Part shown: positions 33,619-35,023 of the stretch, piece by piece
Position numbering within the stretch: position 1 is the stretch's first letter
How the letters are laid out: the number at the start of each line of letters is the position of its first letter
Assembly: GCF_044324785.1 (NCBI RefSeq)
Contig: NZ_CP172127.1
From: Escherichia coli
Lineage (GTDB): Bacteria > Pseudomonadota > Gammaproteobacteria > Enterobacterales > Enterobacteriaceae
Direction: 5' to 3' (one strand)
Length of the DNA: 64,000 nt
Made by a program: the position numbers and the translations under genes
The notes under the pieces: generated by a model
The model's database searches: none
What the model saw: the letters and a program-made list of their open reading frames with translations, nothing else
What the model was told of the DNA's origin: nothing

Positions 33619-34632
33619 TTAAAATAGCATTTGAGTCAAATAGCCCATCAAGATAGCCATACCTAAGATAACCGTCAGGAATGCAACTATCATCGGTATT
33701 CTGAACATTGATTTAAGTAATATCACTTCCGTCAAACTTGCTCCGGCACTGCCGATGATTAATGCCATTAATGCTCCCAGACCCATTCCTTTTGTCATCA
33801 AAACAGATGCCAGAGGGATAATCGCCTCTGCCCGGATATACAGCGGAATTCCGACAACGGCGCTCAATGGGATGGCGAAGGGATTATCTGCCCCTGCATG
33901 AGCGGCAATCCACTCTGAGGGAATAAAGCCATAAATAAAAGAGCCTATTAATACCCCTAACAAAAGATATGGCAGTACATCTTTAAACTGTTGCAACGCA
34001 TCTTTGGTGGCTAGTTTTATGGGATTAATACTTACCACAGCTTTGGTACTGCAACAGTTTACTACAGGTTTCTCAATGGCTTTAGCCGCTGGACTACAGC
34101 AACTCGCTTTTATCGGCGTATATGTCGTCCCCGGCGAAGTTTTGGCTGGAGCACAACAATTTGCTGATGAGCTTTTACTGGCAATGATATGACGTTCAAA
34201 TCCCAGAGAATCCAGGATAATACTGGCAAGTACGGAGACGCCGGCGGCGATAATCGCGTACAACAAGGTAACTTTCCAGCCAAAGGTCACCCACATTAAC
34301 CCGACGATAATGGGATTAAGTAATGGTGAAACAAATAAAAAAGTGAGAGTCGGACCAAACCCGGCTTTCGCTGATAACAATCCACGTAACATGGGGATTG
34401 TCGAGCAACTACAGAACGGGGTAACGGCTCCCAATAGAGCAGCCAGGAGATAGCCTCTCCCTTTTCTGGCCCCCATCATCTGCTGGATTTTATGGTCTGG
34501 CACCTTTTGTCTTATCAGGCTGACACCGGCACTTATCACTATAAACAGCAAAGAAAGCTCGACGGCGAGAAACACAAACATCTCTGCGGCATCTTGCAGC
34601 ATCGCAAGCCAACTACTCATACGTAACCTCAT
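33619..34632 (-). CDS. ArsP-like permease (putative organoarsenical efflux permease, COG0701/DUF318-like)
   Basis: Multi-TM ORF with the TPFCSCS motif (…AVTPFCSCSTIP…) and a Cys-rich loop with three CC pairs; divergent from an ArsR-family regulator. Confidence 0.65.
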   Translation of the reverse strand: MRLRMSSWLAMLQDAAEMFVFLAVELSLLFIVISAGVSLIRQKVPDHKIQQMMGARKGRGYLLAALLGAVTPFCSCSTIPMLRGLLSAKAGFGPTLTFLFVSPLLNPIIVGLMWVTFGWKVTLLYAIIAAGVSVLASIILDSLGFERHIIASKSSSANCCAPAKTSPGTTYTPIKASCCSPAAKAIEKPVVNCCSTKAVVSINPIKLATKDALQQFKDVLPYLLLGVLIGSFIYGFIPSEWIAAHAGADNPFAIPLSAVVGIPLYIRAEAIIPLASVLMTKGMGLGALMALIIGSAGASLTEVILLKSMFRIPMIVAFLTVILGMAILMGYLTQMLF

Positions 34633-34726
34633 TGAATAAATCTATATTTCCAGAATAATCGAAATGAAATTCAGATCAAGATATTTCTGGTATTATCGAA
34701 ATATCAACCAGACAAAGGGGTGTCAT

Positions 34727-35023
34727 ATGCAGTTGGAAGAAGTTGCTAAAGCGCTGAAAGAGCTAGGTCACCCGACCCGTTTGTTCATATTCAAACACCT
34801 GGTCAAAGCGGGGGAACAAGGTTTGCCGGTCGGTGAGTTGCAAAAGCAGCTTGGGATACCCGGCTCTACACTCAGTCACCATATTTCAGCACTGGTATCG
34901 GTAGGGCTGGTCAAACAAAACCGTGAGAGTCGAACGCTGATGTGTGTTTCGCAATACGCAATGCTGGAAGCGATAATTGAATTCTTACGCGAGGAGTGCT
35001 GCGTAAATAGCAAAATTGCCTGA
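34727..35023 (+). CDS. ArsR/SmtB-family metalloregulator (98 aa)
   Basis: Winged-HTH ArsR-like sequence (ELGHPTRLFIFKHL…LSHHISAL); start at MQLEEV with a G-rich RBS (ORF-track start 34664 trimmed). Confidence 0.7.
   Translation: MQLEEVAKALKELGHPTRLFIFKHLVKAGEQGLPVGELQKQLGIPGSTLSHHISALVSVGLVKQNRESRTLMCVSQYAMLEAIIEFLREECCVNSKIA

What the first reader, a model, noticed from the sequence alone, without database searches (positions are those of the whole stretch)
33619..35023. ArsP-like permease plus divergent ArsR-family regulator inserted beside arsRBC
Between yhiS and arsC lies a divergent pair that, to my recollection, is not present at this position in K-12. The permease has the TPFCSCS motif characteristic of ArsP organoarsenical efflux permeases and a Cys-rich loop (…NCCAPAK…KASCCSPAAK…VNCCS…) that suggests soft-metal or metalloid binding. 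The small ArsR/SmtB-type regulator is distinct from the canonical arsR nearby. Together with arsRBC this forms an expanded arsenic/organoarsenical resistance cluster.
Basis: partly seen in the sequence, partly recalled or inferred. Interest (0 to 1): 0.5.

Follow-up and report, generated by a model that had tools for sequence, protein, structure and literature searches.

The report
Methylarsenite sensor and pump pair
Next to the ordinary arsenic-resistance genes, this E. coli carries a small repressor and a membrane pump that closely match a Shewanella pair known to sense, and named for exporting, methylated arsenic; four in ten E. coli have it, K-12 lost it, and it is a fairly ordinary member of a known kind.

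Summary
A 333-aa PF03773 (ArsP_1) permease (33619-34620, minus strand) and a divergent 98-aa ArsR/SmtB regulator (34727-35023, plus strand) lie between yhiS and arsC. K-12 lacks both.

- The pair was not inserted. E. fergusonii and a cryptic Escherichia clade have gor-dinQ-arsRBC-regulator-permease at the same locus. K-12 keeps a decayed relic of the regulator's 3' end, so K-12 deleted the pair.
- TPFCSCS is conserved across the whole PF03773 family, including Cu/Zn exporters, so it does not indicate an arsenical substrate.

The better evidence is the regulator. It is 58% identical, without gaps, to SpArsR of Shewanella putrefaciens, the published methylarsenite-selective repressor. It has the same three cysteines (Cys73/91/92 = Cys83/101/102) and no third C-terminal cysteine. 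Its intergenic region carries two ATTTC-N10-GAAAT dyads. One shares its first 20 nt with a dyad in the S. putrefaciens arsP promoter that SpArsR controls.

The permease is 32% identical over its full length to a Campylobacter permease encoded in a permease-ArsR-Acr3 operon. The Cys-rich loop is hypervariable, predicted disordered, and absent from Campylobacter and Staphylococcus homologues.

Best reading: a self-contained sensor and efflux module for trivalent organoarsenicals. It is a new member of a known kind, untested in E. coli.

The parts
33619..34620 (-). arsP-like permease gene (333 aa; the mechanical ORF extends to 34632)
   Evidence: ORF. Pfam PF03773 at E 1e-52. PGAP start in the closest genome. 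32% identical over the full length to a Campylobacter permease in a permease-ArsR-Acr3 operon. AF2 model pLDDT 87.5.
34402..34422 (-). Codons for T67-P-F-C70-S-C72-S73, the family-wide CSC motif at a helix break
   Evidence: Sequence. C70 and C72 are at least 90% conserved in 75 homologues. The motif sits at the break before helix 71-83 in the model.
34024..34185 (-). Central Cys-rich loop, about residues 146-199, with three CC pairs; low-complexity and predicted disordered
   Evidence: pLDDT about 50 for residues 150-199. Length and Cys count vary widely among homologues, 0-14 Cys.
34644..34665 (.). Operator-like dyad 1, ATATTTCCAGAATAATCGAAAT, overlapping the -10-like hexamer of the rightward (regulator) promoter candidate
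   Evidence: Conserved in plasmid copies down to 52% regulator identity.
34681..34704 (.). Operator-like dyad 2, ATATTTCTGGTATTATCGAAATAT, between the hexamers of the leftward (permease) promoter candidate
   Evidence: Its first 20 nt are identical to a dyad in the S. putrefaciens 200 arsP promoter.
34727..35023 (+). SpArsR-type ArsR/SmtB repressor gene (98 aa); Cys73 at 34943-34945 and Cys91-Cys92 at 34997-35002
35024..35145 (.). REP-like spacer between the convergent regulator and arsC genes, also present in K-12
   Evidence: Alignment with K-12.
35146..35571 (-). arsC (glutaredoxin-type arsenate reductase)
35584..36873 (-). arsB (arsenite/antimonite:H+ antiporter)
36928..37281 (-). Canonical arsR (type-1 CVC site)
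   Evidence: NCBIfam PRK10141, 231 bits..

Best explanation
The two genes form a self-contained sensor and efflux module for trivalent organoarsenicals such as methylarsenite, orthologous to SpArsR and arsP of Shewanella putrefaciens.

Proposed mechanism:
1. The 98-aa repressor binds as a dimer to two ATTTC-N10-GAAAT dyads in the 106-bp intergenic region. This shuts off both divergent promoters.
2. A two-coordinate thiol ligand such as MAs(III) binds the vicinal Cys91-Cys92 pair at the end of the C-terminal helix and releases the repressor.
3. The permease, with its membrane-embedded Cys70-Ser-Cys72 site, exports the arsenical.
4. The lysine-rich, CC-rich central loop is probably cytoplasmic and may pre-bind substrate.

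Shown here: homology, cysteine pattern, operator conservation, and gene linkage.
Taken from papers: MAs(III) selectivity of SpArsR, SpArsR control of the arsP promoter, and MAs(III)/Rox(III) efflux by Campylobacter jejuni ArsP.
Inferred: the ligand, the substrate and the direction of transport in E. coli, the role of the loop, and the promoter positions.

The module sits beside arsRBC, which handles inorganic arsenic, and this arrangement is ancestral in Escherichia.
For: Regulator:
- Its best solved-structure match is AfArsR 6J05 (E 5e-10), with its CC aligned to AfArsR Cys95-Cys96.
- It is 58% identical over 92 residues without gaps (E 3e-41) to SpArsR. I rebuilt the SpArsR sequence from the published biosensor construct. 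Cys73/91/92 correspond to SpArsR Cys83/101/102.
- The protein ends 6 residues after the CC pair, with no further cysteine.
- Sput200_1227 (arsR) controls the promoter of the adjacent Sput200_1226 (arsP) (PMC12124457).

Operator:
- Two dyads lie 37 nt apart. They are conserved in plasmid copies.
- One dyad shares its first 20 nt with a dyad in the S. putrefaciens arsP promoter.
- The dyad occurs in 50 of 52 divergent intergenic regions of homologous pairs, at 8.2 per kb against 0.16 per kb background.

Pairing: the regulator is the only constant neighbour of the permease, in 61 of 80 loci, 54 of them divergent.

Permease: PF03773. It is 32% identical over the full length to a Campylobacter permease in a permease-ArsR-Acr3 operon.

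Arsenic linkage:
- The same order arsR(DA)BC, regulator, permease occurs in a Citrobacter prophage.
- E. fergusonii and a cryptic Escherichia clade have the same arrangement.
- Aeromonas tecta and Endozoicomonas have the pair beside arsD/arsA.
- More distant permease-ArsR pairs lie inside ars clusters on C. freundii and S. saprophyticus plasmids.
Against: - No experiment on the E. coli genes was found.
- 77 of the 80 homologous loci have no arsD or arsA nearby, and recurrent neighbour families gave Acr3-like genes only in the few loci that also carry arsA. Most enteric plasmid copies also stand alone between IS elements. The arsenic context is therefore the exception.
- The best curated family hit is the SO_0444 Cu/Zn exporter, at 109 bits.
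- A third cysteine, Cys73, is invariant in the regulator family and its role is unknown.
- I could not compare the permease directly with the biochemically characterised C. jejuni ArsP or with Sput200_1226, because neither sequence was available. I do not know whether transport by the Shewanella ArsP was ever measured.
- The promoter hexamers are no more frequent than in shuffled sequence.
- The SpArsR and promoter sequences come from a PDF-converted supplement that had lost 2 nt in the coding part.
Confidence: 0.7

Rival explanations
1. The pair is a soft-metal (Cu/Zn/Cd/Ag-type) sensor and exporter like SO_0444 of Shewanella oneidensis. In this reading the Cys-rich loop binds metal, and the position beside arsRBC is incidental.
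For: The top NCBIfam hit is the SO_0444 Cu/Zn efflux family (109 bits). SO_0444 is needed for growth under Zn or Cu stress (PMC3219624). CC-rich loops suit soft metals. Most homologous pairs have no ars neighbours.
Against: The score is far below the curated cut-off of 300. The Campylobacter permease in a permease-ArsR-Acr3 operon and the Shewanella orthologue give the same sub-threshold hit (61-125 bits), so it reflects only superfamily membership. SO_0444 is predicted to be controlled by a ZntR-like regulator, whereas this permease is always paired with an SpArsR-type repressor carrying the same operator.
Confidence: 0.1
2. The regulator senses inorganic As(III)/Sb(III) through a three-cysteine site (Cys73 with Cys91 and Cys92, possibly across the dimer). 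The permease would then be a second arsenite exporter that backs up ArsB.
For: Cys73 is invariant in about 60 family members. The genes sit next to arsRBC. Many Vibrio and Shewanella relatives add a further cysteine (CCxDExC) that resembles AfArsR's Cys102.
Against: SpArsR has the same three cysteines (Cys83/101/102) and is reported not to respond to As(III). C. jejuni ArsP is reported not to extrude inorganic arsenite (PMC6205960). The E. coli protein lacks the extra C-terminal cysteine.
Confidence: 0.12
3. The vicinal cysteine pair is a redox or reactive-sulfur switch, as in RexT or BigR/SqrR. The permease would then export an oxidant-derived or sulfur compound.
For: RexT senses H2O2 (PMC8960804), by my recollection through a vicinal disulfide. 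There is a weak NCBIfam similarity to BigR (38 bits against a cut-off of 155). One 43%-identical permease lies between a thioredoxin-like gene and a sulfite/nitrite reductase gene.
Against: Nothing specific supports it. The closest characterised relative by sequence, cysteine pattern and operator is the arsenical sensor SpArsR. The BigR score is far below its threshold.
Confidence: 0.05

Closest known systems
SpArsR (Sput200_1227) with arsP (Sput200_1226) of Shewanella putrefaciens 200
   Same: Adjacent repressor and permease genes sharing one control region. The regulator is 58% identical without gaps and has the same three cysteines. The C-terminal Cys pair has no third partner. The same ATTTC-N10-GAAAT dyads occur, one sharing its first 20 nt. 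The close Shewanella orthologue of the permease also has a long CC-rich loop.
   Different: The E. coli intergenic region is 106 bp with two dyads, against 222 bp with two strict-scoring dyads plus a weaker third candidate seen by eye. The E. coli regulator lacks the 10-residue N-terminal extension. The permease is only about 48-51% identical to the S. xiamenensis orthologue. E. coli places the pair directly beside arsRBC. No functional data exist for the E. coli genes.
ArsP of Campylobacter jejuni (TC 2.A.119, methylarsenite/roxarsone(III) efflux permease)
   Same: Same Pfam family, and the same (T)PFCSCS motif. A Campylobacter sp. permease (P0308) encoded in a permease-ArsR-Acr3 operon aligns over the full length.
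   Different: Only 32% identity. The Campylobacter-type loop has 2 Cys and no CC pair. That gene is co-transcribed with a canonical ArsR-family gene and acr3, rather than divergent from an SpArsR-type regulator. The characterised C. jejuni protein itself was not compared.
AfArsR of Acidithiobacillus ferrooxidans (PDB 6J05, type-2 As(III) site Cys95/96/102)
   Same: Best solved-structure match. The CC pair aligns with Cys95-Cys96 at the end of the C-terminal helix.
   Different: No equivalent of Cys102, because the protein ends after CCVNSKIA. An extra conserved Cys73 lies where AfArsR has Tyr.
SO_0444 family Cu/Zn efflux transporter (NCBIfam NF033936)
   Same: Same superfamily, with a CSC motif.
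   Different: Scores 109 bits against a cut-off of 300. It has a different type of regulator.

Membership tests
ArsP / PF03773 permease family (TC 2.A.119) | Significant full-length match to Pfam ArsP_1 | tested here: met
   E 1.1e-52, residues 13-334 on model positions 3-293 of 294.
ArsP / PF03773 permease family (TC 2.A.119) | Conserved (T/M)PFCSC(S) cysteine motif in the membrane domain | tested here: met
   T67-S73 in the sequence. C70 and C72 are at least 90% conserved in 75 homologues. This feature is family-wide and does not specify the substrate.
ArsP / PF03773 permease family (TC 2.A.119) | Homology to an ArsP encoded in a bona fide ars operon | tested here: met
   32% identity, E 3e-47, full length, to Campylobacter sp. 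P0308, which lies in a permease-ArsR-Acr3 operon. The characterised C. jejuni protein itself was not available.
ArsP / PF03773 permease family (TC 2.A.119) | Efflux of MAs(III) or Rox(III) but not As(III) | not testable with these tools
   Needs resistance and vesicle transport assays.
SpArsR-type MAs(III)-selective ArsR | ArsR/SmtB winged-helix fold | tested here: met
   HTH_20 at 2e-14. NF033788 at 61.9 bits, above its cut-off of 55.
SpArsR-type MAs(III)-selective ArsR | Vicinal Cys pair equivalent to SpArsR Cys101-Cys102 (AfArsR Cys95-Cys96) | tested here: met
   Cys91-Cys92 align exactly. The pair is invariant in about 60 homologues.
SpArsR-type MAs(III)-selective ArsR | No third C-terminal cysteine (AfArsR Cys102 equivalent) | tested here: met
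   The C-terminus is CCVNSKIA and the protein then stops.
SpArsR-type MAs(III)-selective ArsR | Adjacent arsP whose promoter region carries the regulator's operator | tested here: met
   Divergent pair with two dyads. One dyad shares its first 20 nt with a dyad in the S. putrefaciens arsP promoter.
SpArsR-type MAs(III)-selective ArsR | Derepression by MAs(III) and not by As(III) | not testable with these tools
   Needs reporter or binding assays.
SO_0444 Cu/Zn efflux transporter (NF033936 equivalog) | Score above the curated cut-off of 300 bits | tested here: not met
   108.9 bits. The ArsP-type proteins tested score 61-125 bits as well.
Canonical R773/K-12 ArsR (type-1 site) | ELCVCDL As(III) site in the DNA-binding domain | tested here: not met
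   The aligned segment reads LPVGELQ. Identity to the window's own ArsR is 27%.
AfArsR type-2 As(III) sensor | Three-cysteine site Cys95/Cys96/Cys102 | tested here: not met
   The first two cysteines are present and the third is absent.

The most novel reading that the evidence does not exclude
The hypervariable, disordered, CC-rich central loop of this gammaproteobacterial ArsP clade may be a built-in cytoplasmic thiol 'antenna'. Each vicinal Cys pair would capture one two-coordinate organoarsenical and hand it to the membrane CSC site, doing within one polypeptide what ArsD does for ArsA. Alternatively, the mostly stand-alone marine pairs may sense and export a broader set of thiol-reactive soft electrophiles, with methylarsenite only one of them.
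Probability: 0.15. Interest if true: 0.5.

Novelty: new member of a known kind. Interest (0 to 1): 0.3.

Why it matters
- About 41% of complete E. coli genomes and roughly 900 plasmids, mostly enteric, carry a likely organoarsenical sensor and pump. 878 plasmids have at least 80% coverage and 640 of the 1,001 matching plasmids are typed conjugative; among sampled rows with a stated source, many were chicken, pig and meat isolates. PGAP labels the genes only 'permease' and 'ArsR/SmtB family transcription factor'.
- Naming them would improve annotation.
- It would make one question testable: did organoarsenical feed additives such as roxarsone co-select the resistance plasmids that carry the pair?
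- K-12, the usual host for arsenic biosensors and MAs(III) sensitivity tests, has deleted the module. K-12 phenotypes therefore do not represent the species. SpArsR-based biosensors would meet a cross-reacting native repressor and operator in many wild E. coli.
- The idea itself is not new. Plasmid papers already label such pairs arsR-arsP (PMC9484752).

Tried and rejected
- Primary papers: I tried to read the ArsP and SpArsR papers and the N. denitrificans arsRM paper (PMC4681449, PMC5653410, PMC8881391). None is held. The ArsP cysteine numbering and any test of Sput200_1226 transport therefore rest on secondary sources or memory.
- Literature searches: a search for ArsP Cys65/Cys67 returned only unrelated work. 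Searches for the RefSeq protein accessions returned nothing.
- SO_0444: I considered membership and rejected it on score and regulator type.
- Neighbour census: unbiased clustering of neighbours in 80 homologous loci found no constant partner other than the regulator. LysR, ECF sigma and other neighbours are lineage-specific.
- Structure: Foldseek of a confident AF2 model against the PDB gave no significant match. The best hit was E 0.48, TM 0.36, to AbgT/YdaH, TRAP SiaQM and INDY-type transporters, so no structural analogy is claimed.
- Solved-structure sequence search for the permease gave only a chance hit.
- Promoter scan: it gave no more sites than shuffled sequence, so promoter positions are tentative.
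- Regulator dimer: I considered modelling it to place Cys73 relative to Cys91/92 but did not, because the tool returns no coordinates.

Full report
**What is there.**
Between yhiS (31815-33038, minus strand) and arsC (35146-35571, minus strand) lie two intact divergent ORFs. The permease ORF runs 33619-34632. A GAGG 6 nt before the ATG at 34620, the RefSeq annotation of the closest genome, and plasmid homologues all point to a 333-aa product starting MSSWL. The regulator ORF runs 34664-35023. AGGGG before the ATG at 34727, the RefSeq annotation, and about 60 homologues point to a 98-aa product starting MQLEE.

Pfam gives ArsP_1 (PF03773, E 1e-52) for the permease and HTH_20/HTH_5 for the regulator. 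NCBIfam places the regulator in the ArsR/SmtB metalloregulator subfamily above its cut-off. The regulator is only 27% identical to the canonical ArsR at 36928-37281 and lacks its ELCVCDL site.

**Not an insertion.**
K-12 MG1655 has only a 628-bp spacer between arsC and yhiS. That spacer aligns with the window on both sides of the pair. It still contains a decayed copy of the last 75-110 nt of the regulator gene, including its stop codon and the REP-like sequence that follows.

E. fergusonii and Escherichia sp. E2562 both have prlC-rlmJ-gor-dinQ-arsR-arsB-arsC-regulator-permease at the same locus. The five-gene arrangement therefore predates E. coli, and K-12 carries a deletion. Among 5426 complete E. 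coli genomes, 2223 hold at least 80% of the 2-kb stretch.

**The regulator is the informative part.**
Its best solved-structure match is AfArsR (6J05, E 5e-10), with its CC pair aligned to AfArsR Cys95-Cys96. Papers state that AfArsR binds As(III) through Cys95, Cys96 and Cys102. [quoted passage not shown]

A biosensor paper gives the locus tags, arsR Sput200_1227 and arsP Sput200_1226. It says the arsP promoter, the 222 bp upstream of arsP, is regulated by that ArsR. Its supplement prints both sequences (PMC12124457). I rebuilt the 105-aa SpArsR from the codon-optimised gene. The PDF conversion had dropped 2 nt, and I bridged the gap using a near-identical S. xiamenensis protein. The rebuilt sequence has its CC pair at 101-102, as published.

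The window's regulator is 58% identical to it over 92 residues without a gap (E 3e-41). Cys73/91/92 match Cys83/101/102. The E. coli protein ends six residues after the pair, with no further cysteine.

**Operator.**
The 106-bp intergenic region holds two imperfect palindromes 37 nt apart, ATATTTCCAGAATAATCGAAAT and ATATTTCTGGTATTATCGAAATAT. Each overlaps a weak sigma-70-like promoter candidate for one of the two genes. Those hexamer matches are no more frequent than in shuffled sequence.

Both dyads are conserved in plasmid-borne copies, even where the regulator is only 52% identical. The S. putrefaciens arsP promoter contains ATATTTCTGGTATTATCGAATT, identical to dyad 2 over its first 20 nt, and TAATTTCTGGAATTATGGAAATAT. 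Across homologous pairs from 52 genomes, ATTTC-N10-GAAAT (at least 9 of 10 positions) occurs in 50 intergenic regions, usually two or three times. The density is 8.2 per kb against 0.16 per kb in the surrounding 1.4 Mb. Same protein family, same cysteines and same operator make orthology with SpArsR the best-supported statement in this report.

**The permease.**
The CSC motif is conserved across the whole family. It is described as the motif shared by SO_0444 Cu/Zn exporters and SaoE, so it does not identify the substrate.

The best curated hit, SO_0444, scores 109 bits against a cut-off of 300. A Campylobacter permease in a permease-ArsR-Acr3 operon and the Shewanella orthologue score 61-125 bits on the same model. 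That hit therefore reflects only superfamily membership. The E. coli protein is 32% identical over its full length to the Campylobacter protein.

An AlphaFold model built on 75 sequences is confident (pLDDT 87.5, pTM 0.84) except for residues about 146-199. It places the CSC motif at a helix break. No solved structure matches it significantly.

**The Cys-rich loop.**
The loop is hypervariable, 41-206 residues long with 0-14 cysteines. It is rich in CC pairs in Escherichia, Salmonella, Aeromonas and Shewanella. It carries at most one CC pair in the Campylobacter/Helicobacter homologues and no cysteine in the Staphylococcus and Bacillus ones. It is rich in lysine, and free cysteine pairs would not stay reduced in the periplasm. 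I therefore infer that it is cytoplasmic and may pre-bind substrate. This is inference only.

**Context elsewhere.**
A scan of one genome per species returned 80 loci at 47-74% identity, mostly marine Gammaproteobacteria. The only constant neighbour is the SpArsR-type regulator, in 61 loci, 54 of them divergent. Its three cysteines are present in essentially all of them, two or three divergent outliers aside. Ars genes lie next door in only 3 of the 80. By my rough estimate that is still about ten times what chance would give.

Independent arsenic contexts also exist:
- a Citrobacter prophage carrying arsRDABC, regulator and permease in the E. coli order;
- more distant permease-ArsR pairs inside ars clusters on a C. 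freundii plasmid and an S. saprophyticus plasmid.

On enteric plasmids the pair (75-80% identical) usually stands alone between IS26 or IS1 elements. Some plasmid papers already label such genes arsR and arsP.

**Verdict.**
The module is best read as a stand-alone sensor and pump for trivalent organoarsenicals that in Escherichia sits beside arsRBC. The homology, cysteine pattern, operator and linkage are shown here. The ligand, the substrate and the role of the loop are inferred from characterised relatives. The main uncertainties are as follows:
- there are no data for the E. coli genes;
- the role of the invariant Cys73 is unexplained;
- most homologous pairs have no arsenic context;
- I could not compare the permease with the biochemically characterised C. 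jejuni ArsP.

I rate it a new member of a known kind and of modest interest. Its practical value is for annotation, for biosensor hosts, and for the question of co-selection by organoarsenical feed additives.

Noticed in passing
window 34954-35145, against K-12 NC_000913.3 3650663-3650875 (L005 4664-4876): K-12's arsC-yhiS spacer holds a decayed relic of the last 75-110 nt of the SpArsR-type regulator gene, followed by the same REP-like sequence. This is a deletion scar that K-12 annotation does not record.
   Followed up: yes
window 31815-33038 (-): yhiS is an intact 407-aa ORF here. In K-12 it is a pseudogene split by IS5, and in the closest genome it is frameshifted. It has no NCBIfam match.
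   Followed up: partly
L003 3539-7134 (plasmid pZ1323CEC0006-3): The plasmid copy of the pair lies beside IS1 and, beyond it, a dinQ gene with agrA/agrB-like repeats. These match window 37434-38127 at 75-80%. The plasmid module looks like a captured chromosomal gor-dinQ-ars segment in which IS1 replaced arsRBC.
   Followed up: partly
L020 8313-10999 (E. coli strain E69): A second allele of the pair, 74% identical at the protein level, sits at a different chromosomal site. It lies beside a homologue (77% nt) of the window ORF at 49745-50896 and sequence matching window 54807-59960.
   Followed up: no
window 37300-40300: The gor-rlmJ region is 99.9% identical to a single complete genome (E. coli N3) and about 98.5% to the next-best genomes, with nearly all others in the 95-99% band. 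The pair region matches no complete genome at 99% or better (best 98.4%). The window comes from an uncommon E. coli lineage, or the locus has recombined.
   Followed up: no
L029, L036, L039, L042 and other Vibrio and Shewanella loci, regulator C-termini: Many marine homologues of the regulator end in CCxDExC, adding a cysteine 5 residues after the pair. This resembles AfArsR's Cys102 and, by my recollection of the original SpArsR paper (which I could not retrieve), an engineered As(III)-responsive SpArsR. These natural variants may sense inorganic arsenite.
   Followed up: no
L012-L014 3230-9092 (Citrobacter): A lambdoid prophage carries arsRDABC plus the regulator-permease pair as cargo, between its replication genes and its DinI/RusA genes.
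   Followed up: no
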